Source: Escherichia coli
Lineage (GTDB): Bacteria > Pseudomonadota > Gammaproteobacteria > Enterobacterales > Enterobacteriaceae
Reading direction: 5' to 3' (one strand)
Assembly (NCBI RefSeq): GCF_050320075.1
Contig: NZ_CP190018.1
DNA length: 64,000 nt
The notes beneath the pieces are model-generated. The model was not told where the DNA came from, made no database searches, and was given only the letters and a program-made list of their open reading frames with translations. Below, one piece after another: positions 42,571 to 62,396 of this stretch. Position 1 is the first letter of the stretch. Each line of letters starts with the position of its first letter. The translations under genes were made by a program, and so were the position numbers.

Positions 42571-42786
42571 AGTGTCTGCCTCCAGTGGTCAGTAATCTGG
42601 AGTGTAGGTAACCGCATTCACTCCGGCGGGAAGAATTTACAAACTGTGATCTCGCCGCGAAAACATCAATATTATCCATTTTGCTGTAACATAATTGCTT
42701 TAATTGTTAATAATATTTTGCAATCAAGTTATCATAATCAAACAACTTCACTTGTCAGCGACACCGCTTCGTTTTTAACATCGCTT

Positions 42787-43710
42787 ATGGAAAAAAATAG
42801 TCTGTTTAGTCAGCGCATCCGTTTGCGCCACCTTCATACATTCGTAGCTGTCGCACAACAAGGAACTTTGGGGCGCGCGGCTGAAACCCTTAATTTGAGT
42901 CAACCTGCGCTCTCTAAAACATTGAATGAACTGGAGCAACTGACGGGCGCTCGCTTGTTTGAGCGTGGTCGTCAGGGGGCGCAACTTACCTTACCCGGCG
43001 AACAATTTTTAACGCATGCAGTCAGAGTTCTTGACGCCATCAACACTGCCGGACAGTCGCTTCATCGTAAAGAAGGTCTTAATAATGATGTCGTCAGGGT
43101 TGGTGCACTACCTACTGCGGCACTGGGGATATTACCTTCGGTTATAGGTCAGTTTCATCAGCAACAAAAAGAAACGACCTTGCAAGTTGCGACAATGAGT
43201 AACCCTATGATTCTGGCGGGTTTGAAAACCGGGGAAATCGATATCGGCATTGGTCGGATGTCAGATCCTGAACTGATGACCGGGCTTAATTACGAACTGC
43301 TGTTTCTTGAATCGCTGAAGCTGGTTGTCCGCCCCAATCATCCGCTACTTCAGGAGAACGTAACGCTAAGCCGGGTGCTGGAATGGCCGGTCGTTGTATC
43401 ACCAGAAGGCACTGCGCCACGCCAGCATTCAGATGCATTAGTGCAGAGCCAGGGATGTAAAATTCCTTCGGGTTGTATCGAAACGCTGTCTGCTTCGCTA
43501 TCTCGTCAACTTACGGTTGAATACGACTACGTGTGGTTTGTCCCTTCTGGCGCGGTAAAAGACGACCTGCGTCATGCCACGCTGGTGGCCCTGCCTGTTC
43601 CGGGACATGGTGCAGGCGAACCGATTGGAATACTGACCCGCGTAGATGCAACGTTCTCTTCTGGTTGCCAGTTGATGATTAACGCTATTCGAAAATCAAT
43701 GCCGTTCTGA
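42787..43710 (+). CDS. ydcI: LysR-family transcriptional regulator
   Basis: 307 aa from MEKNSLFSQRIRLRHLHTF; LysR N-terminal helix-turn-helix. Confidence 0.85.
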   Translation: MEKNSLFSQRIRLRHLHTFVAVAQQGTLGRAAETLNLSQPALSKTLNELEQLTGARLFERGRQGAQLTLPGEQFLTHAVRVLDAINTAGQSLHRKEGLNNDVVRVGALPTAALGILPSVIGQFHQQQKETTLQVATMSNPMILAGLKTGEIDIGIGRMSDPELMTGLNYELLFLESLKLVVRPNHPLLQENVTLSRVLEWPVVVSPEGTAPRQHSDALVQSQGCKIPSGCIETLSASLSRQLTVEYDYVWFVPSGAVKDDLRHATLVALPVPGHGAGEPIGILTRVDATFSSGCQLMINAIRKSMPF

Positions 43711-43748
43711 AAGGTGAAGGGATCTGTCGATCCCTTCCTTGAACATTT

Positions 43749-45389
43749 TCACACCGTAGCGAAACTAACTTGTTCACCCGCTCCGCGAGGTTCTGCCAAC
43801 ACAGAATGTTTGTTCAGACGGAATACGTCCACCGCCTCAGTTAATCGTGCCGCCTGTTCTTCAAGGGACACCGCCGCCGCTGAGGCCTCTTCTACCAGAG
43901 AAGCATTCTGTTGCGTCACCTTATCCATTTCAGAAATCGCCTGGCTAACCTGAGTTATGCCTCTGCTTTGTTCATCCGAGGCAGCGGCGATTTCCTGCAT
44001 GATATGTGTGACACTCGCGACGGCATCAACAATAGTGCTCATGGTTTTCCCTGCCATTGCCACCTCATCCGACCCCAGGTCAATTAACCTGACTGATTCA
44101 CTGATCAAGCCTTCAATCTCTTTCGCCGCCTGAGCGCTGCGGCTTGCGAGTGTCCGTACTTCGCTGGCGACAACGGCAAATCCACGCCCTTGCTCACCCG
44201 CTCGCGCGGCTTCAACGGCAGCATTCAGTGCCAGAATATTCGTCTGGAAAGCAATACTGTTGATGACGGCGGTGATCTCAGAAATTTTCTTCGAACTCGT
44301 GGAGATAGCGCCCATCGTTTTTACTACACCGGAAACCGTCTGCCCGCCATCGCTGGCTTTAATAGAAGCCTCTTGCGCCAGTTTGCTGGCATGATGCGCG
44401 TTATCCGCATTCTGTTTCACCGTCGCAGTAAGTTGCTCCATGCTGGCGGCAGTTTGTTCGATAGCCGCCGCTTGTTCTTCGGTGCGAGATGACAGGTCCG
44501 CATTGCCAGCTGAAATTTCGCTGGTGCCACGATAAATCTCTTCCGCACCCTGTCGAACAGTCCCTACTGTCATCCCCAGTGAATGCTGCATTTGCTGTAA
44601 ATGACGACTTAAGCGACCGATTTCATTACGACCCGCCGGTTCATCATTCATCGTCAGATCGCCACTGGCGATTTTTTCAATCCGTTGTGCGGCATGTTGC
44701 AGTGGACGAATGACGATCCGACGTAGCACTATAAATGTTATCAGCGTCATGACCAGGGCAAGCACAAACGCGCCAATCATGAACATCCCACCCAGGCGGG
44801 TGCGCTGATGGGCCAGTTCCGCCAGTTGGTTGGCTCTGGCGCTACGTATCTTAACGGCTTTGCTCAAAATATCGGTATAAGCATTATCCAGCGGTCGGAT
44901 CTGCTCACTTTCATGATTGATAATCGCTTCAAACATGCCATTTTTGGCATATTTCAACATCGGTTGCATACCCGTGATATAAGCCTGGAAGCGTTGATTT
45001 AATTCAGTGTCGAGGGCTTCATCAGCAGGTGTTTTCACCGACCGATTCTGATAAGCACGATAACCTTGCTGCGACTGTTTAATCTCCGATTCGGCTTGCG
45101 CAATATTTCGCTTCATTGCTTCCATTTCAGCAATACGACTCGCAGCACCAGCCTGAATCATATTGATCCGGGCTGAACGCAAAAAATCTGAACTGTTCGC
45201 TAACCCGGTCCGAATCTCAATCTCCGCAGTAACATCACGCTGATCGCGATCGGCCTGCCAAAGGAAATAGCCGGCCAGGGCTGAACTTAATGCGAATAGA
45301 ACTAAGATACCGCCAAGAATGCAGGCAAATAACGGAACCAGCCTGATGTGATGCAAAAAACCTAATCGCTGTGAGGGAGTTGTATTCAT
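43749..45389 (-). CDS. trg: methyl-accepting chemotaxis protein III (ribose/galactose sensor)
   Basis: 546 aa; two transmembrane segments, HAMP domain, MCP signalling domain with methylation sites. Confidence 0.9.
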
Positions 45390-45764
45390 TACCGTTGTCT
45401 CTCTTCCAGGTTTACTCCTGATAGAAAGTCATCGGCACTTGACGGTAATTTCTTACGACCAAAAACCTCTTTGCGTCACATTTTTACAACAATTATGGCA
45501 GAGAAGAATAATGCCATTGGAATGAAGAGAGTAACGAATGATTAAACTGGCTAAACCGAATGACGAAAAATTCTGGAAAACAGCACGCAATTTCGTGAAG
45601 TGATTATTTTCGTCCCTAAGGAAACCTCATAGGATGCCTGCGGGTGCCTGAGACTTTCTGTTTTCAGGCTAACCGGGAATCAGAAAGACGAAGGCCCCGA
45701 CCGATATTTCTATCAACTGTACTGCACCCATTTTGTTGGACGATGAAATGGAATAGCCCCTAAT

Positions 45765-46286
45765 ATGTCAAAGCCAAAATACCCTTTTGAAAAGCGCCTT
45801 GAAGTCGTGAATCACTACTTCACAACTGATGATGGTTACAGGATCATCTCGGCACGTTTTGGTGTCCCCCGAACCCAGGTCAGGACATGGGTTGCCCTCT
45901 ATGAAAAACATGGAGAAAAAGGTTTAATTCCCAAACCTAAAGGCGTTAGTGCTGATCCAGAGTTGCGTATTAAGGTCGTGAAAGCTGTGATCGAGCAGCA
46001 CATGTCCCTTAATCAGGCTGCTGCTCACTTTATGCTTGCTGGTAGTGGTTCTGTAGCCAGGTGGCTGAAGGTCTATGAAGAGCGCGGAGAAGCTGGTTTA
46101 CGCGCGCTCAAGATTGGCACCAAAAGAAACATTGCAATATCAGTTGATCCAGAAAAAGCGGCATCAGCATTGGAGCTGTCAAAAGACCGACGCATTGAGG
46201 ATCTTGAAAGGCAAGTTCGATTTCTTGAAACGCGGCTTATGTATCTAAAAAAGCTGAAAGCCTTAGCTCATCCCACGAAAAAGTAA
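45765..46286 (+). CDS. insJ: IS150 OrfA (InsJ), helix-turn-helix DNA-binding protein
   Basis: 173 aa MSKPKYPFEKRLEVVNHYF. Confidence 0.85.
   Translation: MSKPKYPFEKRLEVVNHYFTTDDGYRIISARFGVPRTQVRTWVALYEKHGEKGLIPKPKGVSADPELRIKVVKAVIEQHMSLNQAAAHFMLAGSGSVARWLKVYEERGEAGLRALKIGTKRNIAISVDPEKAASALELSKDRRIEDLERQVRFLETRLMYLKKLKALAHPTKK
46277..46283 (+). other. putative programmed -1 ribosomal frameshift site (A AAA AAG) joining orfA to orfB
   Basis: Slippery heptamer at the orfA/orfB overlap, as in IS3-family elements. Confidence 0.5.
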
Positions 46287-47134
46287 AAGTACTCAACGAG
46301 CTAAGGCAGTTTTATCCTCTTGATGAGCTTCTCAGGGCTGCGGAGATACCGCGCAGTACGTTTTATTACCATCTAAAGGCTCTCAGCAAGCCTGACAAGT
46401 ATGCGGACGTTAAAAAGCGTATTGGTGAGATTTATCACGAGAATAGAGGCCGATACGGATACCGTAGGGTAACGCTGTCTCTTCATCGAGAAGGGAAACA
46501 GATTAACCATAAAGCTGTTCAGCGCCTGATGGGAACCCTCTCACTTAAAGCAGCGATTAAGGTCAAGCGATACCGCTCTTACAGAGGAGAGGTAGGGCAA
46601 ACCGCCCCTAATGTTCTCCAAAGAGATTTCAAGGCTACGCGGCCAAACGAGAAGTGGGTTACCGATGTTACTGAATTTGTAGTCAATGGGCGCAAGCTGT
46701 ATTTGTCTCCAGTAATAGATCTCTTCAACAACGAAGTTATTTCTTACAGCCTTTCGGAAAGACCAGTGATGAACATGGTTGAGAATATGCTCGATCAGGC
46801 ATTCAAAAAGCTTAATCCTCACGAGCATCCTGTTCTGCACTCTGACCAGGGATGGCAGTATCGTATGAGAAGATATCAAAATATCCTTAAAGAACATGGT
46901 ATTAAACAAAGCATGTCCAGAAAAGGCAATTGTCTGGATAATGCTGTGGTGGAGTGTTTCTTTGGAACCTTAAAGTCGGAGTGTTTTTATCTTGATGAGT
47001 TCAGTAATATAAGCGAACTGAAGGATGCTGTTACGGAATATATTGAATACTACAACAGCAGAAGAATTAGCCTGAAATTAAAAGGTCTGACTCCAATTGA
47101 ATATCGGAATCAGACCTATATGCCTCGTGTTTAA
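46283..47134 (+). CDS. insK: IS150 OrfB (InsK), DDE transposase catalytic domain, expressed as an OrfAB fusion by frameshift
   Basis: Frame open from about 46268; DDE integrase-like sequence. Confidence 0.75.
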
Positions 47135-47175
47135 CTGTCCAACTTTTTGGGGTCAGTACAAACCGAGGCCAACGA

Positions 47176-47383
<208 letters not shown>

Positions 47384-47454
47384 GGGCAAGCGCGGGGATT
47401 TTCCCCGCGCATCTGACTAGCAGATTCATTTTCTCATGGCACCCCTTTTACACT

Positions 47455-47628
47455 TCAGTTAGTGCATGTTTTTTTCGATGCACTAATAGAACCATCATTA
47501 CAGACAAATTTGCCGCCTGCCGTACAGTGTGAGATCCCCCCTTTCGAACCAGAACAGGGTTTGCGCCCGGCATCGGCATAAAAGGAAACAAGCGTTCCCA
47601 TAAACAAGATAAGTGCCAGTTTTTTCAT
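47455..47628 (-). CDS. ydcA: small secreted cysteine-rich protein YdcA (57 aa)
   Basis: MKKLALILFMGTLVSFYADAGRKPCSGSKGG; GGAGG Shine-Dalgarno; not in the ORF track (too short). Confidence 0.65.
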   Translation of the reverse strand: MKKLALILFMGTLVSFYADAGRKPCSGSKGGISHCTAGGKFVCNDGSISASKKTCTN

Positions 47629-47798
47629 ATAACCTCCATGGTTTATCGAATCTTATGTTCGATTTGAACGTTATACGCTGGTTTATTTTGATACCGTTGA
47701 TGAGATCAAAGATCGGGCGAATTGATTAAAGATAAGCCAGATGGACGTATGGATAAGGATTATGGTTTTATTTGTCATACAAATAAATATAATAGGCG

Positions 47799-47862
47799 CT
47801 TCCGATGTAGACCCGTATTCTTCGCCTGTACCACGGGTCGGTTTTAGTACAGGCGTTTTCTT
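47799..47862 (+). ncRNA. rydC: RydC small RNA (Hfq-dependent, pseudoknot), approximate ends
   Basis: cybB-ydcA intergenic location; CTTCCGATGTAGACCCGTATTC...; hairpin CCTGTAC/GTACAGG with T-run; TATAAT-like -10 box upstream. Confidence 0.55.
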
Positions 47863-47872
47863 TAAATATCCT

Positions 47873-48403
47873 TCAGGAACGTTTACGCGGCATCATGCGT
47901 AGAAGTGTGTTGTCCTTCCAGAAATAGTGGTGTGCCAGTGCAGCCGCAGCGTGCAACCCGATGACAAAATATCCCAGATTCGCCAGCATTTCATGCCACG
48001 ACTTTAAGCTATCAACCCGTTCGAAATTGGCCTCTGATGCATAAGGCATCGTCAAACCAAACGCAAACCACGGGTTGCCTCGGTTATACATCATCACCAA
48101 ACCAATCACTGGCAGCGCAATAAACAGGAGATAAATCACCAAATGTCCCAAATGCGCCAGTCCCGTCATCATCGGTTTTGGCTTAGGTATAATCGGCGGG
48201 GTTGGGTATTTCAGCCTTAACAAAAGACGAACGACCATCAGCACGAGAATTGATATGCCACAGGAAACATGAATCATGTTGATGAGTGGCCGATCGCTAC
48301 GTGGGAAGAACCCCCGAAACTCCATTGCGCAATACGCTGCAATAACCAGCAAAAAGACCAGCCAGTGAATGCTGATTTGTAACCTTGAGTATTTATTTTC
48401 CAT
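47873..48403 (-). CDS. cybB: cytochrome b561
   Basis: 176 aa from MENKYSRLQISIHW; four-helix membrane protein with conserved His residues. Confidence 0.85.
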   Translation of the reverse strand: MENKYSRLQISIHWLVFLLVIAAYCAMEFRGFFPRSDRPLINMIHVSCGISILVLMVVRLLLRLKYPTPPIIPKPKPMMTGLAHLGHLVIYLLFIALPVIGLVMMYNRGNPWFAFGLTMPYASEANFERVDSLKSWHEMLANLGYFVIGLHAAAALAHHYFWKDNTLLRMMPRKRS

Positions 48404-48591
48404 AACATTTCCTGCTTTAACATAATTTTCCGTTAACATAACGGGCTTTTCTTAAAATTTCATTAAATATTGTTCACCCGTTTTCAGTACGTTACGTTTC
48501 ACGGCAAGAATGTAGATTGCCCATCCCGCCATCCTGGTCTAAGCCTGGAAAGGATCAATTTTCATCCGAACGTTCCTGACAGGAGAAGACC

Positions 48592-49593
48592 ATGAGTAAA
48601 GTTGGTATTAACGGTTTTGGTCGTATCGGTCGACTGGTGTTGCGTCGATTACTTGAAGTCAAAAGCAACATAGACATTGTCGCTATTAATGATCTCACTT
48701 CCCCAAAAATTCTCGCCTACCTGCTGAAACATGATTCAAACTATGGACCGTTCCCCTGGAGCGTTGATTTTACGGAAGATTCACTTATCGTTGATGGGAA
48801 AAGTATCGCGGTTTACGCCGAAAAAGAGGCTAAAAATATTCCGTGGAAAGCGAAAGGGGCAGAAATTATTGTCGAATGTACTGGCTTTTATACCTCCGCC
48901 GAGAAATCGCAGGCGCATCTTGATGCTGGTGCGAAGAAGGTGTTGATTTCCGCCCCTGCCGGTGAAATGAAAACTATCGTTTATAACGTCAATGACGACA
49001 CTCTGGATGGCAACGACACCATTGTTTCCGTGGCGTCATGCACCACTAACTGCCTTGCGCCGATGGCCAAAGCCTTGCACGACAGTTTCGGAATAGAAGT
49101 CGGCACGATGACGACCATTCATGCCTATACCGGCACTCAGTCACTGGTGGATGGCCCGCGTGGTAAAGATTTACGTGCTTCACGCGCAGCGGCAGAAAAT
49201 ATCATTCCCCACACTACGGGGGCGGCAAAAGCCATTGGTCTGGTGATCCCAGAACTGAGCGGCAAACTGAAAGGTCATGCGCAACGCGTGCCGGTGAAAA
49301 CAGGTTCCGTCACTGAACTGGTATCGATTCTCGGAAAAAAAGTGACTGCCGAAGAGGTGAATAACGCACTTAAACAAGCAACCACCAATAACGAGTCATT
49401 TGGTTATACCGATGAAGAAATAGTCTCTTCCGATATCATTGGCAGCCATTTCGGTTCGGTGTTTGATGCCACGCAAACCGAAATTACCGCCGTGGGCGAT
49501 TTACAACTGGTGAAAACGGTCGCCTGGTACGATAACGAATATGGCTTCGTCACGCAGCTTATTCGCACCCTCGAAAAATTCGCTAAACTCTGA
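48592..49593 (+). CDS. gapC: glyceraldehyde-3-phosphate dehydrogenase C, intact 333-aa reading frame
   Basis: NAD motif NGFGRIGR; catalytic SCTTNC. Confidence 0.85.
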
Positions 49594-49634
49594 CGCGCAC
49601 AGGCGGAGGAAAAAACCTCCGCCTCTTTCACTCA

Positions 49635-51074
49635 TTAAGACTGTAAATAAACCACCTGGGTCTGCAGATATTCATGCAGGCCATGTTTACCATCTGCGCC
49701 GCCAATACCGGATTTACGCCATCCGGCGTGGAAGCCTTGCATAGCTTCGAAGTTTTCACGGTTGATGTAAGTTTCACCAAACTTCAGCCCTTTAATGGCT
49801 TTCATCGCGACGTTCAGATTTTGGGTATAGATTGATGAGGTCAGGCCGTAATCACTGTCATTCGCCATTGCGATAGCATCTTCCAGCGTGTCAAATGCGA
49901 CCACTGGCAGAACCGGGCCAAAGGTTTCCTCATGCATAATCGACATTTCCTGGCGAACATCCAGCAGCAATGTCGGCGGATAATAATATCCTTTCCCCTC
50001 TACCGCTTTGCCACCCAACGCCACTCTCGCCCCTTCTTCTACTGCGCGCGCCACTTTTTGCTCGACCCTTTCCAGCGCCGCGGCGTTAATCAACGGCCCC
50101 ATCGCAATGTCGTTGCGTTCTGCGGGGTTACCAAATTGAACCGCCTGCAACGCTTCACCCAGCCGATTGACGAACTGATCATAAATGCCTTTCTGTACAT
50201 AAACACGTTCTGCACAGTTACACACTTGCCCACTATTAATGACGCGTGAATCAACGATGGCTTTGACTGCCAGTTCAAGATCGGCATCGTCCATTACGAT
50301 AGCTGGTGCTTTACCCCCCAATTCCAGGCACACTTTGGTGATGTTTTTCGCCGCAGTCGCCATGATCTTTTCACCTGCAGAGACGCTGCCTGTCATACTG
50401 ACCATTGCGACCTTTGGGTTACCCGCCAGTTCTTGCCCAACGGTTTCACCACGCCCCAGAACAAGGTTAAACACGCCGCGCGGAAGGCCTATTTCATCGA
50501 CGATTTTGGCGAATGCAATCGCATTGTTTGGCGTAAATTCACTGGGTTTAATGACAATGGTATTACCAGTCAAAAGAGCGGGAGCCATTTTGCGGGCAAT
50601 GAGGAAGAACGGGAAGTTCCACGGCAGAATGCCGGTAGTCACACCAAGCGCACGTTTAAACAGAAGAATATTTTCTCCTGGACGATCGCTTTGAATAATC
50701 TCGCCCTCGTAACGCCGTGCCCACTCCGCCATGTAATCGATATAGTCCGCAGTAAAAGCCACTTCGACTTCAGCCAGCTGCTGGATCTTGCCCCCTTCTT
50801 CAACAATCAGCGCACTGATTTCACTGGCGCGTTCGCGGATCCCGACGGAGATTTTGCGCAACCAACTGGCGCGTTCAATAGCAGGCAACGCTTCCCATTC
50901 TGGTTGTGCACGTTCTGCTGCATCGATTGCCTTACGGGCATCCTCGGCCTGACCATCGGGAATGCGGGAAATGACAGCCTCTGTAGCAGGGTTTACCACA
51001 TCAATCCATGCGTCTCCACGCCAGGTAACAAACTGTCCATCAATATACATAGGATGTTGAACGGGTACTGACAT
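49635..51074 (-). CDS. aldA: lactaldehyde dehydrogenase
   Basis: 479 aa; ALDH motifs ELGGKAP and QVCNCAERV. Confidence 0.9.
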   Translation of the reverse strand: MSVPVQHPMYIDGQFVTWRGDAWIDVVNPATEAVISRIPDGQAEDARKAIDAAERAQPEWEALPAIERASWLRKISVGIRERASEISALIVEEGGKIQQLAEVEVAFTADYIDYMAEWARRYEGEIIQSDRPGENILLFKRALGVTTGILPWNFPFFLIARKMAPALLTGNTIVIKPSEFTPNNAIAFAKIVDEIGLPRGVFNLVLGRGETVGQELAGNPKVAMVSMTGSVSAGEKIMATAAKNITKVCLELGGKAPAIVMDDADLELAVKAIVDSRVINSGQVCNCAERVYVQKGIYDQFVNRLGEALQAVQFGNPAERNDIAMGPLINAAALERVEQKVARAVEEGARVALGGKAVEGKGYYYPPTLLLDVRQEMSIMHEETFGPVLPVVAFDTLEDAIAMANDSDYGLTSSIYTQNLNVAMKAIKGLKFGETYINRENFEAMQGFHAGWRKSGIGGADGKHGLHEYLQTQVVYLQS

Positions 51075-51270: not shown

Positions 51271-52071
51271 TTAACGTAACGAGCGACTTTCCATCGCCTC
51301 GATGAGCACCGCATCGTGTTTCAGCGTTTGCCATGCATGGATGACTTCTGCCGGAAAATCAACGTGAACGATAAAATCTCGCCCGCGGGGACCGTAGCCA
51401 TCGCTATCATCGCGTAAACGCGGCAGCTCGCCAGTGAGTAGTGAGAGATAACGCTCAACCGGCCATAATCCTTGCAACGGATTAACAAAGATTACACTGT
51501 CTGCGTTGTTTCCTAGCTGAGGAACGAATCCGGGATAACTTAACCAGCGAGGTGCATCTGGATTGTCCCCGGTCATACGGCGGAACGTCGCCATCGTGCG
51601 CCGCTGCATGGTGGGGTCCTGAACAACGATAGCCGTATGAACTCGTTCTACGGCCTGATTCAATAGCGCGATGCTAAAGCGTGCGTTTTCACCGCAGTTT
51701 GTTGACTGGTCTTCAATCCAGATTTTTTCATGCGGAATATGCCAGAACTGATGAGCGATATCCGCCAGGATGGTGGCTTCTGCTCTGCCAGTGGTGCGGA
51801 TAGTGTTGTAGTGCGGATGCTGTGCGATAGCGCTATACAAAAAAGTTGTCGAGTGACCGATACCACCACTAATCAGTAGAGGAATTTGCTGATCGCGGGC
51901 AATCTTACATGCCGCATCGATAGTCGGCATAACCGCATTGCCTGCAAGGATCACGCAATCGGCCTGATACGGCATCTCACCGGAGAAATCATCCTGCGCC
52001 AGCCACTGTCCGATAACATTTATGGCATCTATAGTTGCCGTCGAAAGCGTCGGAAACGGGGTAATGTTCAT
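51271..52071 (-). CDS. ydcF: DUF218-domain protein YdcF
   Basis: 266 aa. Confidence 0.8.
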
Positions 52072-53512: not shown

Positions 53513-53685
53513 AGAAAGAGATTAAAGCCTGACCGACGCAATCAAGCTCTATTATTCGCTCATAATACGATCTCATTAAAATATCATGCTTACTCATTGC
53601 AATACGTCCTGTTTACCATGGGCAGAGTATGAATGTAACTTATGTAAAATAGTACCGCCCTTGCTATTTTTCAGAATTCATAAAG

Positions 53686-54755
53686 GCTGAATTTACAATC
53701 CAAGTGCAACAAAAAAAGAAGTACTCATCAACTAGAATATAATTTTGTTTCCACACAAAAACCATTTCCAAATGATGAGTACTTCCTACCGACATCTTAC
53801 AATAAACGAGCGAGAAAAGATAATGATTTTACTCGCACAGGGCAAAAAACAAGCAGAAATTGCCAAAGCACTGGGACGTAGCTCCAGCACCATTTCTCGC
53901 GAGCTGAAACGACACGCTCTAGAAAGCTACAGTGCAACGAACGCACAAAACAGCTATTTGAAGCATCGTCAAAATAGCAAAGCACAGCGCAAATTAGAGC
54001 AGCCTGAATATTTCAATTTGGTGCAAGAAAAGTTTCTGACAGAAAACTGGTCGCCCGAACAAATCAGCGCACGATTAAAATTGGAAAAATCTGAATTATC
54101 CATTAGTTATTCAACCATTTATCGTGGTATTTATTCAGGGTTGTTTGATATAGGCGAACGCAAAGCCAGTCGCAAACTGCGCCACAAAGGCAAAACACGG
54201 CATACAAAAAATCATCATGAAAAACGTGGCAAAATTCAGATATCCAACCATTTGAACGACCGTCCCATTTCGGCGCAAAATCGCAGTCGCTTTGGACATT
54301 GGGAAGCCGATACCGTACTGGGTAAAGCGGGTGGAGCTTGTTTGCTGACGCTGACGGAACGCAAAAGTCGTTTTGAGTTGGTGAAGAAAATTCCTGCCAA
54401 AAAAGCCGAAGCAGTCCAAAAAGCCATGATTGAATTGCTGGATTCACATATATTGCGGTCAATTACGCCAGACCGTGGTAAAGAATTTGCCCAACATCGT
54501 TTGGTAACAGAAGCACTGGGTGTAGAATTTTACTTCCCCGAGCCGCATCAACCGTGGACACGGGGAACGAATGAAAATACAAATGGGTTACTTCGTGAAT
54601 ACTTTCCGAAGCACCAAGACATCAATCAGTGGAGCGAAGTTGATATTCAACAGGTGATCAATAAACTGAATTTACGACCACGTAAATGTTTAGGTTGGAA
54701 AACACCTTATGAAGTTTACTTCAAAAAATCGTTGCACTTGGTTTGACAATTCAAG
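53686..54755 (+). mobile_element. ISApl1 (IS30 family), upstream copy, transposase intact
   Basis: 1070 bp; imperfect terminal inverted repeats TGAATTTACAATCCAAGTGCAAC / TGAATTGTCAAACCAAGTGCAAC (reverse complement). Confidence 0.85.
53823..54746 (+). CDS. tnpA: ISApl1 transposase (IS30 family, DDE); 307 aa from MILLAQGKKQ, alternative upstream starts at 53772/53775 possible
   Basis: HTH region LGRSSSTISRELKR; C-terminal DDE integrase core. Confidence 0.8.
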   Translation: MILLAQGKKQAEIAKALGRSSSTISRELKRHALESYSATNAQNSYLKHRQNSKAQRKLEQPEYFNLVQEKFLTENWSPEQISARLKLEKSELSISYSTIYRGIYSGLFDIGERKASRKLRHKGKTRHTKNHHEKRGKIQISNHLNDRPISAQNRSRFGHWEADTVLGKAGGACLLTLTERKSRFELVKKIPAKKAEAVQKAMIELLDSHILRSITPDRGKEFAQHRLVTEALGVEFYFPEPHQPWTRGTNENTNGLLREYFPKHQDINQWSEVDIQQVINKLNLRPRKCLGWKTPYEVYFKKSLHLV

Positions 54756-54941
54756 ATACAAATTATAAATACTCTCAAGTGTATATTCAGTATGGGATTG
54801 CGCAATGATTGCCTAATAAAATTTCTGAAATATTTCTGTATCGCATAATTTTTTATATCAGATAAATTGTACTGGATTTCTTAAAAAATTGCAGTATAAT
54901 TGCCGCAATTATCCCACCGTTTATTTTTTGAGTAGTTTCTC

Positions 54942-56567
54942 ATGATGCAGCATACTTCTGTGTGGTACCGACGCTCGGTCAGTCCGTTTGTTCTTGTGGC
55001 GAGTGTTGCCGTTTTCTTGACCGCGACCGCCAATCTTACCTTTTTTGATAAAATCAGCCAAACCTATCCCATCGCGGACAATCTCGGCTTTGTGCTGACG
55101 ATCGCTGTCGTGCTCTTTGGCGCGATGCTACTGATCACCACGCTGTTATCATCGTATCGCTATGTGCTAAAGCCTGTGTTGATTTTGCTATTAATCATGG
55201 GCGCGGTGACCAGTTATTTTACTGACACTTATGGCACGGTCTATGATACGACCATGCTCCAAAATGCCCTACAGACCGACCAAGCCGAGACCAAGGATCT
55301 ATTAAACGCAGCGTTTATCATGCGTATCATTGGTTTGGGTGTGCTACCAAGTTTGCTTGTGGCTTTTGTTAAGGTGGATTATCCGACTTGGGGCAAGGGT
55401 TTGATGCGCCGATTGGGCTTGATCGTGGCAAGTCTTGCGCTGATTTTACTGCCTGTGGTGGCGTTCAGCAGTCATTATGCCAGTTTCTTTCGCGTGCATA
55501 AGCCGCTGCGTAGCTATGTCAATCCGATCATGCCAATCTACTCGGTGGGTAAGCTTGCCAGTATTGAGTATAAAAAAGCCAGTGCGCCAAAAGATACCAT
55601 TTATCACGCCAAAGACGCGGTACAAGCAACCAAGCCTGATATGCGTAAGCCACGCCTAGTGGTGTTCGTCGTCGGTGAGACGGCACGCGCCGATCATGTC
55701 AGCTTCAATGGCTATGAGCGCGATACTTTCCCACAGCTTGCCAAGATCGATGGCGTGACCAATTTTAGCAATGTCACATCGTGCGGCACATCGACGGCGT
55801 ATTCTGTGCCGTGTATGTTCAGCTATCTGGGCGCGGATGAGTATGATGTCGATACCGCCAAATACCAAGAAAATGTGCTGGATACGCTGGATCGCTTGGG
55901 CGTAAGTATCTTGTGGCGTGATAATAATTCGGACTCAAAAGGCGTGATGGATAAGCTGCCAAAAGCGCAATTTGCCGATTATAAATCCGCGACCAACAAC
56001 GCCATCTGCAACACCAATCCTTATAACGAATGCCGCGATGTCGGTATGCTCGTTGGCTTAGATGACTTTGTCGCTGCCAATAACGGCAAAGATATGCTGA
56101 TCATGCTGCACCAAATGGGCAATCACGGGCCTGCGTATTTTAAGCGATATGATGAAAAGTTTGCCAAATTCACGCCAGTGTGTGAAGGTAATGAGCTTGC
56201 CAAGTGCGAACATCAGTCCTTGATCAATGCTTATGACAATGCCTTGCTTGCCACCGATGATTTCATCGCTCAAAGTATCCAGTGGCTGCAGACGCACAGC
56301 AATGCCTATGATGTCTCAATGCTGTATGTCAGCGATCATGGCGAAAGTCTGGGTGAGAACGGTGTCTATCTACATGGTATGCCAAATGCCTTTGCACCAA
56401 AAGAACAGCGCAGTGTGCCTGCATTTTTCTGGACGGATAAGCAAACTGGCATCACGCCAATGGCAACCGATACCGTCCTGACCCATGACGCGATCACGCC
56501 GACATTATTAAAGCTGTTTGATGTCACCGCGGACAAAGTCAAAGACCGCACCGCATTCATCCGCTGA
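54942..56567 (+). CDS. mcr-1: phosphoethanolamine--lipid A transferase MCR-1 (mobile colistin resistance)
   Basis: 541 aa; MMQHTSVWYRRSVSPFVLVAS N-terminus, five-helix membrane domain, sulfatase-like catalytic domain with the nucleophile Thr in the CGTSTAYS motif. Confidence 0.95.
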   Translation: MMQHTSVWYRRSVSPFVLVASVAVFLTATANLTFFDKISQTYPIADNLGFVLTIAVVLFGAMLLITTLLSSYRYVLKPVLILLLIMGAVTSYFTDTYGTVYDTTMLQNALQTDQAETKDLLNAAFIMRIIGLGVLPSLLVAFVKVDYPTWGKGLMRRLGLIVASLALILLPVVAFSSHYASFFRVHKPLRSYVNPIMPIYSVGKLASIEYKKASAPKDTIYHAKDAVQATKPDMRKPRLVVFVVGETARADHVSFNGYERDTFPQLAKIDGVTNFSNVTSCGTSTAYSVPCMFSYLGADEYDVDTAKYQENVLDTLDRLGVSILWRDNNSDSKGVMDKLPKAQFADYKSATNNAICNTNPYNECRDVGMLVGLDDFVAANNGKDMLIMLHQMGNHGPAYFKRYDEKFAKFTPVCEGNELAKCEHQSLINAYDNALLATDDFIAQSIQWLQTHSNAYDVSMLYVSDHGESLGENGVYLHGMPNAFAPKEQRSVPAFFWTDKQTGITPMATDTVLTHDAITPTLLKLFDVTADKVKDRTAFIR

Positions 56568-56614
56568 TTTCTCCCTGTATTTTTTCCAAACCCACCGCAC
56601 ACTCCATTCGTATT

Positions 56615-57361
56615 ATGGGCGGTGGGGTGGGGTTTGTTATGCCGTATTTATCAAATAAACGCCTACTTGCTGAGATGAGTATCGCTCTTGTCATGGCGAT
56701 CGTTGCCACGCTGACCCTTGAGCACAGTCAGATTGATCTGATGGTCGCTGATTGGTTTTATCTGGGTATGGGGCATTGGATGGTTGCCAAGCAAGCTTTT
56801 TTGCCAGATTTGCTACTGTATTCTGGACTAAAAAAGCTGCTGATGGCGATGCTGATCTACTTGCTGGTTGCGACCATTTGCCGTGCTTATCATGAGAAAA
56901 AGGGCAATGCTATCACTGCCAAGTGGCTTGTCCCAGTGACAAAATTTCGCGTGCGTGAGCTTGCGTATCTGGTGCTGACTTTGATCCTAGTGCCGACAGT
57001 TGTCGCGTCATTGAAGGCATATACTCATGTGGTCTGCCCTGTGCATTTGACGATTTTTGATGGTACGCTGCCGTATTTGCCGATGCTTGATAGTATGCGT
57101 AACACCATTCCTGATAAGTGCTTTCCTGCGGCGCATGCCAGTAGCGGATTTGCGCTGTTTGCCTTTGCGTTTGCGCCAAGTTTGCGCCGCCGTCGTGGTG
57201 CGATCATCATCGTGGTGATGGCATTGGGCTGGGCGATGGGCTGCTATAAGATGATTATTGGCGATCATTTTTTGAGCCATACGGTGGTGTCGATGATGCT
57301 TGCGTGGGCGATGTCGGCAGGGCTTGCGTGGGTGTTTTTTAAGAAGGGTGAACAAGTTTAA
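56615..57361 (+). CDS. pap2: PAP2-family membrane phosphatase (start may be 56639)
   Basis: 248-aa hydrophobic protein directly downstream of mcr-1, as in the mcr-1 cassette. Confidence 0.8.
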   Translation: MGGGVGFVMPYLSNKRLLAEMSIALVMAIVATLTLEHSQIDLMVADWFYLGMGHWMVAKQAFLPDLLLYSGLKKLLMAMLIYLLVATICRAYHEKKGNAITAKWLVPVTKFRVRELAYLVLTLILVPTVVASLKAYTHVVCPVHLTIFDGTLPYLPMLDSMRNTIPDKCFPAAHASSGFALFAFAFAPSLRRRRGAIIIVVMALGWAMGCYKMIIGDHFLSHTVVSMMLAWAMSAGLAWVFFKKGEQV

Positions 57362-57364
57362 TCG

Positions 57365-58434
57365 GCTGAATTTACAATCCAAGTGCAACAAAAAAAGAAG
57401 TACTCATCAACTAGAATATAATTTTGTTTCCACACAAAAACCACTTCCAAATGATGAGTACTTCCTACCGACATCTTACAATAAACGAGCGAGAAAAGAT
57501 AATGATTTTACTCGCACAGGGCAAAAAATAAGCAGAAATTGCCAAAGCACTGGGACGTAGCTCCAGCACCATTTCTCGCGAGCTGAAACGACACGCTCTA
57601 GAAAGCTACAGTGCAACGAACGCACAAAACAGCTATTTGAAGCATCGTCAAAATAGCAAAGCACAGCGCAAATTAGAGCAGCCTGAATATTTCAATTTGG
57701 TGCAAGAAAAGTTTCTGACAGAAAACTGGTCGCCCGAACAAATCAGCGCACGATTAAAATTGGAAAAATCTGAATTATCCATTAGTTATTCAACCATTTA
57801 TCGTGGTATTTATTCAGGGTTGTTTGATATAGGCGAACGCAAAGCCAGTCGCAAACTGCGCCACAAAGGCAAAACACGGCATACAAAAAATCATCATGAA
57901 AAACGTGGCAAAATTCAGATATCCAACCATTTGAACGACCGTCCCATTTCGGCGCAAAATCGCAGTCGCTTTGGACATTGGGAAGCCGATACCGTACTGG
58001 GTAAAGCGGGTGGAGCTTGTTTGCTGACGCTGACGGAACGCAAAAGTCGTTTTGAGTTGGTGAAGAAAATTCCTGCCAAAAAAGCCGAAGCAGTCCAAAA
58101 AGCCATGATTGAATTGCTGGATTCACATATATTGCGGTCAATTACGCCAGACCGTGGTAAAGAATTTGCCCAACATCGTTTGGTAACAGAAGCACTGGGT
58201 GTAGAATTTTACTTCCCCGAGCCGCATCAACCGTGGACACGGGGAACGAATGAAAATACAAATGGGTTACTTCGTGAATACTTTCCGAAGCACCAAGACA
58301 TCAATCAGTGGAGCGAAGTTGATATTCAACAGGTGATCAATAAACTGAATTTACGACCACGTAAATGTTTAGGTTGGAAAACACCTTATGAAGTTTACTT
58401 CAAAAAATCGTTGCACTTGGTTTGACAATTCAAG
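57365..58434 (+). mobile_element. ISApl1, downstream copy, transposase inactivated
   Basis: Co-linear with the upstream copy at a fixed offset of 3679 bp; at least two substitutions seen, including the nonsense change. Confidence 0.85.
57502..58425 (+). pseudogene. tnpA: ISApl1 transposase pseudogene, codon 10 CAA->TAA (57529..57531)
   Basis: GGCAAAAAATAAGCAGAAATT here versus GGCAAAAAACAAGCAGAAATT in the upstream copy; remainder of the frame matches copy 1. Confidence 0.8.
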
Positions 58435-58436
58435 AG

Positions 58437-58470
58437 AAAAAACCCGGCGCTAAATGCTTACCGGGTTTTA
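58437..58470 (-). terminator. rho-independent terminator of hrpA
   Basis: Hairpin CCCGG...CCGGG with flanking A and T tracts just downstream of the hrpA stop. Confidence 0.55.
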
Positions 58471-58493: not shown

Positions 58494-61400
58494 TTAACCG
58501 CTAATCTGCTCCATCGCCTGCAAAATACGCTTATCTGAAATCGGATAAGGCGTACCAAGTTGTTGAGCGAAGTAACTAACGCGCAACTCTTCTATCATCC
58601 AACGGATCTCTTTCACGTCTTCATCCTCACGACGTGCGGGCGGCAGTTTGTTGATCCATTGCTGCCACGCCTGCTGGACATTTTCGACTTTCAGCATCTG
58701 AGCACGGTCGCGATGTGGGTCAACCGCCAGTTTTTCCAGCCGTTTTTCAATCGCCTGCAAATAACGCAGCGTGTCGCCCAACCGTTTGAAGCCGTTACTA
58801 GTGACAAAACCGCGATATACCAACCCGCCCATCTGCGCTTTAATGTCAGAAAGCCCCAGCGCCATGGTCATATCCACCCGCCCTTTCAGACGTTTATTGA
58901 TATTGAACACCGCAGTAAGGATTTGCTCGACCTGCTTCGCAATATCCACCACCGTGTCGTTCAGTTCAGCGCGGACTTTTTCATGCAGCGCAGCAAAACC
59001 TTCTTCCGTCCAGACCGGGCCACCATTGGCGTCGATCAGTTGATCCACACCGCAGGAGATACAGTCGTCGATCAGCTCCAGCACTTTGCCATACGGGTTA
59101 AAGTACAGCCCCAGCTTGGCTTTGTTTGGCAACTTCTCATGCAAATATTTGATTGGCGAGGGAATATTCAGCAGCAGTAGACGGCGAAGACCGTTCCACA
59201 TTGCCTGCTTTTGTTCCAGCGGATTATCAAACAGTTTGATCGCCACGCTGTCGCGTTCATCCACTAGCGCTGGCCACGCCTTCACTTTATAGTTGCCACG
59301 CTTCTGTTCGTAGCTTTCCGGCAGCTGACCAAAACTCCAGATATGTAAGCCGCTCTGCTCGATACCGTCATCCGCCACCGCAGACAGCGTTTCCTGCACT
59401 TTGCCTTTCAGCGCATCTTTCAGATCTTGTAGAGAGCGCCCTTCTTTTAGCTTCTTGTTTTTGTCATCCACCACACGGAAGGTGATTTTCAGGTGATCGG
59501 GCACCTGATCCCAGTGCCAGTCTTCGCGGTCAACGGTGACGCCAGTCATCCGCCGTAGCTCTCGTTCAAGGCTGTCGAGCAACGGCAATTCCAGCGGTGT
59601 GACGCGGCCTAAAAAAGCTTCGGCGTAGTTTGGCGCGGGCACAAAATTACGCCGTACCGGTTTCGGCAACGATTTAATCAGAGCAATCACCAGTTCGCGG
59701 CGCAGACCGGGGATCTGCCACTCAAATCCGCTCTCCTCCACCTGGTTAAGTAACGGCAGCGGGATATGTACCGTCACGCCGTCCGCATCCGCCCCTGGCT
59801 CAAACTGATAACTCAAACGCAGCTTGAGATTGCCCTGATGCCAGAAGTTCGGGTAATCCAGCTTGCTGATCTTTTCCGCCCCTTCTTTGATCAACATGCT
59901 CTTTTCAAAGTTGAGCAAATCAGGCGTTTCGCGGCTGACTTTTTTCCACCAGCTGTCGAAGTGACGTGCGGAGATCACATCGTGGCTGATGCGCTGGTCG
60001 TAAAACTCAAACAGCGTTTCGTCATCCACCAGAATATCGCGGCGACGTGTTTTGTGTTCCAGTTCTTCCACTTCGGCCCGTAGTTTCAGGTTTTCACGGA
60101 AGAATGCGTGACGCGTCTGCCAGTCACCTTCCACCAGCGCGTGGCGAATAAAGAGTTCACGACATAACGCCGGATCGATCTGGCTGTAGTTGACCTTGCG
60201 CGCGGCAACAATCGGCAAGCCATAAACAGTGACTTTTTCCGTTGCCATCACCGCGCCCTGCGCCCGTTCCCAGTGCGGTTCGCTGTAGGTGCGTTTAATC
60301 AAATGCTGAGCAACTGGCTCCACCCATTCTGGATCGATGCGTGCCGCAATGCGCCCCCACAGGCGGCTGGTTTCTACCAGTTCCGCCACCATTACCCATT
60401 TCGGCGGCTTTTTAAATAAGCCGGAACCGGGGAAAATGGAGAAACGCGCGTTACGTGCGCCGGTATATTCTTGTTTATCGGCATCTTTCATGCCGATATG
60501 GGAAAGCAAACCGGTCAGTAAGGCGATGTGAATTTCGCGATACTCCGCCGGTTCGCTGTTAACCGGAATGCCAAGTTCTTTTACCACCTGGCGCAACTGG
60601 GTGTAGATATCCTGCCATTCGCGCACGCGCAGATAGTTGAGATAATCGGTACGACACAGGCGACGGAAAGCGTTGGAAGAAAGCGCCTTTTGCTGCTCGC
60701 CAAGATAATTCCACAGATTTACAAACGCGAGGAAGTCGGATTCTTTGTCGTGGAAGCGACGATGTTTTTCGTCCGATGCCTGCTGTTTGTCCATCGGTCG
60801 TTCGCGCGGATCCTGGATGGAGAGCGCGGACGTGATAATCATCGCCTCACGCACGCAGCCATGTTTTTGCGCTTCCAGCACCATACGCGCCAGACGAGGA
60901 TCGACAGGCAATTGCGAAAGCTGGCGACCGAGCGGCGTCAGTTTATAGGCGCTGGCCTGTTCATCAGTGGTGATCGCGCCCAGCTCTTCGAGCAGACGCA
61001 CGCCATCCTGGATATTACGTTTATCCGGTGCTTCGACAAATGGGAACGCGGCGATATCGCCCAACCCCAGCGCGGTCATCTGTAAAATAACCGAGGCCAG
61101 GTTGGTACGCAGAATCTCCGGATCGGTAAACTCCGGGCGCGAGAGGAAATCGTCTTCGGAATAGAGACGAATACAGATCCCTTCGGACACACGACCACAG
61201 CGGCCTTTACGCTGGTTGGCAGACGCCTGCGAAATGGGCTCAATCGGCAAACGCTGCACTTTGGTGCGATAGCTGTAGCGGCTGATACGCGCCGTACCTG
61301 GGTCGATAACGTATTTAATCCCCGGTACGGTCAGCGACGTTTCCGCGACGTTGGTCGCCAGCACAATGCGCCGTCCACTGTGCGACTGGAACACGCGGTT

Positions 61401-62396
61401 CTGTTCGCTGTTCGAAAGCCGCGCATAAAGCGGCAAGATTTCGGTATGGCGTAAGTTCAGCTTGTTCAGCGCATCGGCGGTATCGCGAATTTCCCGCTCA
61501 CCGCTCATAAAGATCAGAATGTCGCCGGGACTTTCCTGGCTCAGTTCGTCTACGGCGTCAAAAATCGCCTGCAACTGATCGCGCTCGGTGTCATCGGCTT
61601 CTTCAACAATCGGGCGATAGCGCACTTCCACCGGATAGGTCCGACCGGAGACTTCGATAATCGGCGCATTATTAAAGTGGCGCGAAAAGCGTTCCGGGTC
61701 GATAGTCGCGGAAGTGATAATGATTTTTAGGTCAGGACGCCGCGGTAGCAACTCTTTCAAATAGCCGAGCAGAAAATCGATATTCAGGCTGCGTTCGTGC
61801 GCTTCGTCAATAATGATAGTGTCGTACTGCATCAGCAGGCGGTCTTGCTGGATCTCCGCCAGCAGGATACCGTCGGTCATCAGCTTGACCATCGTGTTAT
61901 CACTTACGTGATCGCTGAAACGCACTTTGTAACCGATGCAACCGCCCGGCTCCGTTTTCAGCTCTTCCGCAATACGGTTCGCCACCGTTCGTGCCGCCAG
62001 GCGACGCGGCTGGGTATGGCCGATCAGCCCTTTAATCCCGCGCCCCAGTTCCATACAGATTTTCGGTAGCTGAGTCGTCTTACCGGAACCGGTTTCCCCG
62101 GCGACGATCACCACCTGGTGATCACGAATCGCTTCGAGAATGTCCTTCTTTTTCTGACTAACTGGCAAATTGTCGGGATAAGTGATTTCCGGTCGTGCCG
62201 CTTCACGCAGCAGGACTTTCCCTGCCGCCTGGTCAATCTCTTTCGCCATCTCCTGGAAAATGGCCTGTTGTGCATCAGGATTTTTAACCTTCTTCACACC
62301 GTGCAGACGGCGTAAAAAACGCTGTCTGTCGCGCAGCATCAGCGAATCCAGCCGCTGCTGCAAGGCAGTAAAGGTCAATTTTTGTTGTTCTGTCAT
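58494..62396 (-). CDS. hrpA: ATP-dependent RNA helicase HrpA (DEAH-box)
   Basis: 1300 aa; Walker A GETGSGKTTQ, DEAH motif (IIIDEAHERS), helicase C-terminal and HA2 regions. Confidence 0.9.
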   Translation of the reverse strand: MTEQQKLTFTALQQRLDSLMLRDRQRFLRRLHGVKKVKNPDAQQAIFQEMAKEIDQAAGKVLLREAARPEITYPDNLPVSQKKKDILEAIRDHQVVIVAGETGSGKTTQLPKICMELGRGIKGLIGHTQPRRLAARTVANRIAEELKTEPGGCIGYKVRFSDHVSDNTMVKLMTDGILLAEIQQDRLLMQYDTIIIDEAHERSLNIDFLLGYLKELLPRRPDLKIIITSATIDPERFSRHFNNAPIIEVSGRTYPVEVRYRPIVEEADDTERDQLQAIFDAVDELSQESPGDILIFMSGEREIRDTADALNKLNLRHTEILPLYARLSNSEQNRVFQSHSGRRIVLATNVAETSLTVPGIKYVIDPGTARISRYSYRTKVQRLPIEPISQASANQRKGRCGRVSEGICIRLYSEDDFLSRPEFTDPEILRTNLASVILQMTALGLGDIAAFPFVEAPDKRNIQDGVRLLEELGAITTDEQASAYKLTPLGRQLSQLPVDPRLARMVLEAQKHGCVREAMIITSALSIQDPRERPMDKQQASDEKHRRFHDKESDFLAFVNLWNYLGEQQKALSSNAFRRLCRTDYLNYLRVREWQDIYTQLRQVVKELGIPVNSEPAEYREIHIALLTGLLSHIGMKDADKQEYTGARNARFSIFPGSGLFKKPPKWVMVAELVETSRLWGRIAARIDPEWVEPVAQHLIKRTYSEPHWERAQGAVMATEKVTVYGLPIVAARKVNYSQIDPALCRELFIRHALVEGDWQTRHAFFRENLKLRAEVEELEHKTRRRDILVDDETLFEFYDQRISHDVISARHFDSWWKKVSRETPDLLNFEKSMLIKEGAEKISKLDYPNFWHQGNLKLRLSYQFEPGADADGVTVHIPLPLLNQVEESGFEWQIPGLRRELVIALIKSLPKPVRRNFVPAPNYAEAFLGRVTPLELPLLDSLERELRRMTGVTVDREDWHWDQVPDHLKITFRVVDDKNKKLKEGRSLQDLKDALKGKVQETLSAVADDGIEQSGLHIWSFGQLPESYEQKRGNYKVKAWPALVDERDSVAIKLFDNPLEQKQAMWNGLRRLLLLNIPSPIKYLHEKLPNKAKLGLYFNPYGKVLELIDDCISCGVDQLIDANGGPVWTEEGFAALHEKVRAELNDTVVDIAKQVEQILTAVFNINKRLKGRVDMTMALGLSDIKAQMGGLVYRGFVTSNGFKRLGDTLRYLQAIEKRLEKLAVDPHRDRAQMLKVENVQQAWQQWINKLPPARREDEDVKEIRWMIEELRVSYFAQQLGTPYPISDKRILQAMEQISG

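What the first reader, a model, noticed from the sequence alone, without database searches (positions are those of the whole stretch)
57502..57531. Downstream ISApl1 copy carries a premature TAA in the transposase
Codon 10 of the transposase is CAA in the upstream copy (53850..53852) and TAA in the downstream copy (57529..57531); a second substitution lies upstream of the ORF. The downstream copy therefore cannot make full-length transposase. Transposition could still be supplied in trans by the upstream copy, but the element looks to be on a path toward immobilisation, consistent with the reported tendency of mcr-1 cassettes to lose ISApl1 function after insertion.
Basis: seen in the sequence. 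Interest (0 to 1): 0.6.

Follow-up and report, generated by a model that had tools for sequence, protein, structure and literature searches.

The report
Tn6330 with one dead ISApl1 copy
The colistin-resistance transposon Tn6330 sits in an E. coli chromosome with a real stop codon that kills the transposase gene of its downstream ISApl1 copy, yet the same mutant transposon lies at a second insertion site in other strains, so it was probably still able to move.

Summary
The two 1070-bp ISApl1 copies (53686..54755 and 57365..58434) differ at only two bases. One is C→T at 57529, which turns CAA into TAA. This is codon 10 in the 307-aa numbering used in the literature and codon 27 in RefSeq's 324-aa ORF. 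It lies in the middle of the HTH_38 DNA-binding domain, and no plausible restart follows it.

The change is not a sequencing error. The identical 4749-bp Tn6330 occurs in two RefSeq chicken E. coli genomes, where PGAP flags an "internal stop", and the same allele occurs in GenBank CP077680.1.

The second substitution (position 80, T upstream and C downstream) is not private. It is the known marker that separates the two copies in every Tn6330 sampled. C is the ancestral base.

In those other genomes the mutant transposon sits at a different site (traF of an I-complex backbone, target site duplication (TSD) CT) from the one here (hrpA–ydcF intergenic, TSD AG). Empty sites were found for both. 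The transposon therefore most likely transposed as a unit after the mutation arose, using transposase supplied in trans, as Tn5 does with IS50L.

"Heading for immobilisation" is only partly supported. This is an ordinary, rare allele (about 1% of Tn6330) of a known element.

The parts
53684..53685 (.). Left copy of the 2-bp target site duplication (AG)
   Evidence: The empty site in NZ_AP021935.1 has a single AG.
53686..54755 (+). Upstream ISApl1 (1070 bp), intact. It carries the derived T at IS position 80 (53765).
   Evidence: It is 100% identical to the upstream copies of 6 other Tn6330.
53772..54746 (+). Intact ISApl1 transposase gene (324 aa, identical to WP_012478345.1). HTH_38 covers residues 5-48 and rve covers residues 174-261. 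CAA codon 27 is at 53850..53852.
54756..57364 (+). The 2609-bp mcr-1.1–pap2 segment, bounded by the ancestral inner dinucleotides AT (54756-57) and CG (57363-64). mcr-1 is at 54942..56567 and pap2 at 56639..57361.
   Evidence: PMC5821093.
57365..58434 (+). Downstream ISApl1 (1070 bp). Both terminal inverted repeats are identical to those of the upstream copy. It has the ancestral C at IS position 80 (57444) and the private T at IS position 165 (57529).
57451..58425 (+). Transposase pseudogene of the downstream copy. PGAP calls the identical sequence 'internal stop' in NZ_CP123240.1 and NZ_CP190349.1.
57529..57531 (+). Premature TAA. It is Q27* in the 324-aa numbering and Q10* in the 307-aa numbering, and lies in the middle of HTH_38.
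58435..58436 (.). Right copy of the 2-bp target site duplication (AG)
58437..58468 (-). hrpA intrinsic terminator hairpin plus U-tract, directly abutting the insertion. It is context only and is not disrupted.
   Evidence: The hrpA ORF is at 58494..62396 on the minus strand.

Best explanation
This is a canonical Tn6330 (ISApl1–mcr-1.1–pap2–ISApl1, 4749 bp, 53686..58434). It inserted by transposition into the hrpA–ydcF intergenic region of an E. coli chromosome and made a 2-bp AG duplication.

Its only difference from the canonical transposon is one C→T change in the downstream ISApl1. That change creates an ochre stop at codon 27 of 324, inside the N-terminal HTH_38 domain that binds the IS ends, so it is a null allele. 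The inverted repeats of that copy are untouched, so the copy is now a non-autonomous IS that can still serve as the right-hand end of the transposon.

Transposase from the intact upstream copy (inferred), or from another ISApl1 in the cell, acts on the outer IRL and IRR and moves the whole unit. This is the asymmetric arrangement known from Tn5 (IS50L ochre, IS50R active).

Shown here: the mutation, its position in the domain, the intact ends, the TSDs and empty sites, and the same allele at two sites. Inferred: that the move happened after the mutation, and that the upstream copy supplied the enzyme.
For: - There are two differences only between the copies, and the stop is in frame.
- HTH_38 covers residues 5-48, so the stop lies inside the domain.
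- No SD-preceded restart exists. The next in-frame start is TTG at codon 63.
- The window's Tn6330 differs from the canonical one (PE15) only at 57529.
- The identical 4749 bp occurs in NZ_CP123240.1, and with one mismatch in NZ_CP190349.1. Identity stops exactly at the IS ends and the flanks are unrelated.
- TSDs are CT there and AG here.
- Both empty sites exist in other genomes. The hrpA site is in NZ_AP021935.1. The traF site matches 600/600 in NZ_CP135671.1 and NZ_CP178690.1 and 99.7% in many I-complex plasmids.
- Published work shows that a kan-disrupted ISApl1 is rescued for circle formation by ISApl1 supplied from a second plasmid, and that the HTH domain binds IRL and IRR (PMC10916398).
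- Published work shows that both ISApl1 copies are needed in cis as ends, and that Tn6330 makes 2-bp TSDs in AT-rich DNA (PMC6349718).
- Independent natural support: a frameshifted 1059-bp ISApl1 derivative is found, identical, at two different TSD-flanked sites.
Against: - Common ancestry of the two insertions rests on a single shared base, because the rest of the transposon is canonical.
- The allele could have been copied between two co-resident Tn6330 by recombination rather than carried by transposition. CP077680.1, with the stop in both copies, hints that such conversion happens.
- The source of the transposase is not known. Only 64 kb of the genome is visible, and mcr-1 strains often carry further ISApl1 copies (median 2, up to 41 places per genome).
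- No transposition assay or read-level data are available.
Confidence: 0.75

Rival explanations
1. The mutant allele reached the second site by homologous recombination or gene conversion between two Tn6330 copies in one cell, not by transposition of the mutant element. In that case nothing shows that the mutant transposon is still mobile, and the reader's 'decaying element' view holds.
For: In CP077680.1 both ISApl1 copies carry T165 while keeping their T80/C80 marker. This is what a short conversion tract would give. AP023312.1 has the same 7-bp deletion in both copies.
Against: This route needs two events, an independent canonical insertion at the second site and then a conversion, where transposition needs one. 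The both-copy cases may be assembly or polishing artefacts of a 1-kb repeat. No genome with two Tn6330 loci of this lineage was seen.
Confidence: 0.12
2. The same CAA→TAA change arose independently in the downstream copy at each site, either by chance or under selection for lower transposase dosage.
For: Inactivating lesions of ISApl1 are not rare. Deletions of 11 bp, 7 bp and 37 bp and IS insertions were all seen in passing.
Against: The gene offers 156 different one-step nonsense substitutions in 129 codons. The same one in the same copy twice is therefore unlikely, even under selection. The allele is in only 2 of about 186 complete Tn6330 records.
Confidence: 0.04
3. The T at 57529 is a sequencing or assembly error and the downstream copy is intact.
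For: The base lies next to an A6 run inside a 1070-bp repeat, where polishing can misassign variants.
Against: The same base appears in the same copy in three other assemblies from different laboratories. It is a substitution, not a homopolymer indel, and it is not in a Dam or Dcm motif. The upstream copy, in an identical context, reads C.
Confidence: 0.03
4. The downstream copy still makes an active N-terminally truncated transposase by reinitiation after the stop.
For: An open frame of 262 codons follows from TTG at 57637. It keeps the HTH_32-like region (residues 63-118) and the rve/DDE core. From memory, and not verified here, IS30 work attributed binding of the IS ends mainly to a second HTH.
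Against: There is no Shine-Dalgarno sequence before that TTG, which lies 105 nt after the stop, and no ATG occurs before codon 219. The product would lack HTH_38 entirely. The purified ISApl1 HTH domain is what binds IRL and IRR (PMC10916398).
Confidence: 0.03

Closest known systems
Tn6330 (ISApl1–mcr-1–pap2–ISApl1), as described by Snesrud et al. 2016/2018 and He et al. 2019
   Same: It has the 4749-bp structure and direct 1070-bp ISApl1 copies. It has the inner AT and CG dinucleotides, a 2-bp TSD and an AT-rich target. It has the T80 (upstream) and C80 (downstream) marker. It is identical to the canonical sequence except for one base (PMC5821093, PMC6349718).
   Different: One base, 57529 C→T, makes the downstream transposase gene a pseudogene. 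About 1% of complete Tn6330 in RefSeq E. coli carry this change. I found no paper that describes it.
Tn5 (IS50L carries an ochre mutation and IS50R supplies the transposase) and Tn10 (IS10-Left is weak and IS10-Right active). This is textbook knowledge and was not tested here.
   Same: It is a composite transposon in which one flanking IS has lost transposase function through a nonsense mutation but keeps usable ends. The other copy supplies the enzyme and the whole unit still moves.
   Different: The IS family and mechanism differ: IS30 family with copy-out–paste-in, against IS4 family with cut-and-paste. In Tn5 the mutation is fixed and also creates the promoter of the resistance gene. Here the allele is rare, lies downstream of mcr-1/pap2, and creates no promoter-like site.
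Single-ended and ISApl1-less mcr-1 cassettes (the 'demise' of Tn6330)
   Same: Both are ways in which a flanking ISApl1 loses function after mcr-1 has been delivered.
   Different: Those cassettes arise by deletion of about 1070 bp that removes the IS and its ends, which immobilises mcr-1 (PMC5821093). Here the ends are intact and only the coding capacity is lost, so mobility is retained as long as a helper transposase is present.
Non-autonomous IS derivatives mobilised in trans
   Same: The downstream copy has intact inverted repeats and a dead transposase gene. A comparable natural ISApl1 derivative, with an 11-bp frameshifting deletion, was found at several TSD-flanked sites.
   Different: It is full length, with a point mutation rather than an internal deletion, and it acts as one end of a composite.

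Membership tests
Tn6330 | Two directly repeated full-length ISApl1 copies flanking a segment of about 2609 bp that carries mcr-1 and pap2 | tested here: met
   The copies are 1070 bp each, with 2609 bp between them. mcr-1.1 and pap2 are identical to those of NZ_CP123240.1.
Tn6330 | Conserved ancestral inner dinucleotides: AT after the upstream IS and CG before the downstream IS | tested here: met
   AT is at 54756-57 and CG at 57363-64. The criterion comes from PMC5821093.
Tn6330 | A 2-bp target site duplication at the outer ends, with a matching empty site | tested here: met
   AG/AG. The empty site with a single AG is in NZ_AP021935.1.
Tn6330 | Marker at IS position 80: upstream TTTCCAA, downstream CTTCCAA | tested here: met
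   One search shows it in 6 of 6 other Tn6330 as well. It is mentioned in PMC6349718.
ISApl1 / IS30 family (downstream copy as an autonomous IS) | An intact DDE transposase ORF with an N-terminal HTH and an rve core | tested here: not met
   TAA at codon 27, inside HTH_38. The upstream copy meets this feature.
ISApl1 / IS30 family | Terminal inverted repeats intact | tested here: met
   The two copies differ only at positions 80 and 165, so both ends are identical to those of the functional copy.
Asymmetric composite transposon of the Tn5 type | One IS is null through a nonsense mutation and the other is intact | tested here: met
Asymmetric composite transposon of the Tn5 type | The composite still transposes as a unit after the mutation | tested here: inconclusive
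   The same allele lies at two TSD-flanked sites with verified empty sites, which argues strongly for it. Allele transfer by recombination is not excluded, and no assay was run.
Asymmetric composite transposon of the Tn5 type | The inactivating mutation also creates a promoter for the cargo gene | tested here: not met
   The mutation lies downstream of mcr-1/pap2. The consensus scan finds the same promoter-like sites in both copies and no new one at 57529.

The most novel reading that the evidence does not exclude
Point inactivation followed by gene conversion between the two ISApl1 copies may be a second, so far undescribed route by which Tn6330 becomes fixed, alongside the known deletion of ISApl1. 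On this reading the window shows step one: one dead copy, with the transposon still mobile and spreading. CP077680.1 shows step two: the stop in both copies at the traF site, with the T80/C80 marker retained. AP023312.1, with the same 7-bp deletion in both copies, would be an independent example.
Probability: 0.2. Interest if true: 0.45.

Novelty: new member of a known kind. Interest (0 to 1): 0.3.

Why it matters
The practical question for mcr-1 is whether a given chromosomal copy can still move. A stop codon in one ISApl1 could be read as 'disabled'. The evidence here says the opposite. As long as the ends are intact and one transposase source exists, the cassette stays mobile, and this very allele has been found at two sites in poultry-associated and other E. 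coli. Surveillance pipelines that score Tn6330 'intactness' from gene annotation (pseudogene flags) would misjudge its mobility. Beyond that, this is a rare allele of a very well-known element. It works in the way textbook composite transposons do.

Tried and rejected
- I scanned JGI metagenome contigs for the 50-mer carrying the T and found 0 hits.
- I searched PLSDB plasmids. None of the 435 ISApl1-bearing records carries the T.
- The window's own insertion junction is absent from RefSeq complete E. coli genomes, so the source strain could not be identified.
- Literature searches for the allele, the strains and the accessions found nothing relevant. The EC17CM2 paper does not discuss ISApl1. 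One search was badly framed and useless.
- The IS30 HTH1/HTH2 papers are not in the library, so that point rests on memory only.
- A look-up of the 262-aa post-stop ORF is not specific to this allele. It returns any ISApl1 with a damaged 5' region or a mis-called start. It did, by luck, find CP077680.1.
- AP023312.1 is not in the annotated collections.
- The promoter and terminator consensus scan was uninformative. Counts were no higher than in shuffled sequence, and it missed the hrpA terminator because of its loop length.
- I did not determine whether the window strain and YZLc1-3 belong to one lineage, because no tool can target a single record.
- I considered and rejected a start codon downstream of the stop, a sequencing error and independent recurrence (see the rival explanations).

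Full report
**What is there**

53686..54755 and 57365..58434 are two direct 1070-bp copies of ISApl1, and they differ at two positions only.
- IS position 80: 53765 T against 57444 C.
- IS position 165: 53850 C against 57529 T.

The second change converts CAA to TAA in the transposase frame. Between the copies lie 2609 bp with mcr-1 (54942..56567) and pap2. This segment is bounded by the inner dinucleotides AT and CG that Snesrud et al. describe as ancestral for Tn6330 (PMC5821093). The outer ends are flanked by AG/AG. The whole unit, 53686..58434, is 4749 bp.

**Where it is**

The right flank is hrpA (58494..62396, minus strand). The left flank is ydcF–aldA. Window 990..50989 is 99.976% identical, without gaps, to E. 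coli WP2-W18-ESBL-10. In that strain the two flanks are contiguous with a single AG. The insertion is therefore a genuine transposition into an intergenic, AT-rich spot, directly after the hrpA terminator hairpin. No record in RefSeq's complete E. coli genomes has this junction.

**Which codon, and does the stop matter**

RefSeq annotates the ISApl1 transposase as 324 aa starting at the ATG that corresponds to 53772 (WP_012478345.1). The experimental literature uses a 307-aa numbering that starts at the ATG at 53823. Its catalytic D163/D217/E251 are D180/D234/E268 of the long form (PMC10916398).

Pfam places a complete HTH_38 domain at residues 5-48 of the long form and rve at residues 174-261. 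This supports the upstream start and puts the stop in the middle of the DNA-binding domain.

After the stop, the first in-frame start codon is a TTG at codon 63 with no Shine-Dalgarno sequence. The first ATG is at codon 219. The purified HTH domain of this protein is what binds IRL and IRR (PMC10916398). The downstream gene is therefore a null allele.

**Is it an error**

A 61-mer centred on the T matches exactly in two of the 330 ISApl1-bearing RefSeq E. coli records. These are YZLc1-3 (chicken, Yangzhou) and EC17CM2 (chicken meat, Zhejiang). In both, PGAP marks the downstream ISApl1 transposase as a pseudogene with an 'internal stop'. A third assembly, GenBank CP077680.1, also has the T.

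None of 435 PLSDB plasmids with ISApl1 has it, and it is absent from JGI metagenome contigs. The upstream copy in the same sequence context reads C. A sequencing artefact is very unlikely.

**The second substitution**

This is not a mutation of the downstream copy.
- ISApl1 in Moraxella pluranimalium, Actinobacillus indolicus and A. porcinus has C at position 80, so C is ancestral.
- In six other Tn6330 (plasmids and chromosomes from China, Argentina, Ecuador and Singapore), the upstream copy always has T and the downstream copy always has C.
- He et al. 2019 already mention this difference: upstream TTTCCAA, downstream CTTCCAA (PMC6349718).

It lies 7 nt before the long-form ATG. The window's transposon differs from the canonical one (for example strain PE15) by the single base at 57529.

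**The key result**

In YZLc1-3 the 4749-bp transposon is 100% identical to the window's. EC17CM2 has one mismatch, in mcr-1. Identity ends exactly at the IS termini and the flanks are unrelated. There the element sits in the 5' end of traF, on an I-complex conjugative backbone integrated in the chromosome, and is flanked by CT/CT.

I rebuilt the empty site (300 nt + CT + 300 nt). It matches 600/600 in two other chromosomes and 99.7% in many plasmids of 83-105 kb.

So the same mutant transposon occupies two bona fide insertion sites, each with its own 2-bp duplication. The most economical reading is that Tn6330 transposed as a unit at least once after the stop codon arose.

This fits what is known.
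- Both ISApl1 copies are needed in cis as ends (PMC6349718).
- A transposase-disrupted ISApl1 can be rescued in trans (PMC10916398).

It is the arrangement of Tn5, where IS50L carries an ochre codon and IS50R supplies the enzyme (textbook knowledge). Whether the helper here was the upstream copy or another ISApl1 in the cell cannot be told from 64 kb.

**Alternatives**

- The shared evidence for common descent is a single base. Independent recurrence is improbable, because there are 156 possible one-step nonsense changes and the allele is in 2 of about 186 complete Tn6330 records.
- Transfer of the allele between two co-resident Tn6330 by recombination cannot be excluded, and I give it about 12%.
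- CP077680.1 carries the transposon at the traF site with the stop in both copies, while each copy keeps its T80/C80 marker. This is either a short gene conversion or an assembly artefact.
- The published decay route of Tn6330 is different. It is deletion of the ISApl1 copies (PMC5821093).

**Supporting observation from elsewhere**

A 1059-bp ISApl1 with an 11-bp frameshifting deletion is found, base-identical, at two different TSD-flanked sites. It is also found as a pair around a beta-lactamase gene in metagenome scaffolds. This shows that ISApl1 copies with dead transposase genes do get moved in nature.

**Verdict**

The element is the well-known Tn6330 carrying a rare null allele in one flanking IS, and the data argue that it stayed mobile rather than becoming immobilised. 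It is a new example of a known kind (an asymmetric composite transposon). It is of modest interest, mainly as a caution for judging mcr-1 mobility from annotation.

Noticed in passing
L018 5729..6798 and 9408..10477 (same record as L019); GenBank CP077680.1: Tn6330 sits at the same traF site (TSD CT) as in YZLc1-3 and EC17CM2, but both ISApl1 copies carry the TAA. The upstream copy keeps T80 and the downstream copy keeps C80. This is either gene conversion of the stop into the upstream copy, which would make a fully dead transposon, or an assembly artefact.
   Followed up: partly
L015 2065..3126 and 5736..6798 (plasmid AP023312.1, 230.5 kb): This Tn6330 has the same 7-bp deletion (IS positions 252-258, a frameshift) in both ISApl1 copies, with the T80/C80 marker retained. 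The upstream copy also lacks one A of an A6 run, which may be a long-read error.
   Followed up: partly
L014 5740..6798; L017 5740..6798; L020 and L021 5740..6798 and 7783..8841: A 1059-bp ISApl1 derivative has an 11-bp frameshifting deletion (positions 190-200). It is base-identical at two different TSD-flanked sites (AG/AG and TG/TG) and also occurs as a pair flanking a beta-lactamase gene. This looks like a non-autonomous ISApl1 moved in trans.
   Followed up: partly
L010 4366..5435 (910 G>A); L011 4366..5435 (102 T>G); upstream copies in L008-L013: In six Tn6330 sampled without regard to mutations, two downstream copies carry private missense changes, while all six upstream copies are identical to the window's. 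The sample is too small to show relaxed constraint on the downstream copy.
   Followed up: no
L016 4530..4766 and 5962..6798; L023 454..1290: The downstream ISApl1 is interrupted at about position 234 by another IS (DDE_Tnp_1 family). This is a further way in which that copy gets disabled.
   Followed up: no
L005 443..1475 (Moraxella pluranimalium CCUG 54913); L006 1937..2347 (Actinobacillus indolicus): The Moraxella ISApl1 copy lacks IS positions 209-245 (37 bp, a frameshift). A. indolicus has an element of about 411 bp made of ISApl1 positions 1-227 joined to 880-1070, a miniature derivative that keeps both ends.
   Followed up: no
L013 687..9114 (E. coli 99COLEC chromosome, in fliQ): A tandem ISApl1–mcr-1–pap2–ISApl1–mcr-1–pap2–ISApl1 array carries the position-80 bases T, C, C.
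   Followed up: no
window 58437..58468 (minus strand): The transposon inserted immediately after the U-tract of the hrpA intrinsic terminator hairpin (AAAACCCGG...CCGGGUUUUUU). No gene is disrupted.
   Followed up: partly
window 51801..51807; window about 45765..47134, 18111..18569 and 5860..11629: ydcF is intact here, whereas the closest relatives (for example WP2-W18-ESBL-10) have an IS3-family insertion at this point. By collinearity with that strain, the window also holds an IS150 copy, an IS200C copy and an RHS core with ISAs1 remnants.
   Followed up: no
window 53670..53699 and 57349..57378: Both ISApl1 copies have a promoter-like site with its -10 (TACAAT) inside IRL and its -35 in the flanking DNA (TTCAGA or TGAACA). 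The scan as a whole was not above the shuffled background.
   Followed up: no
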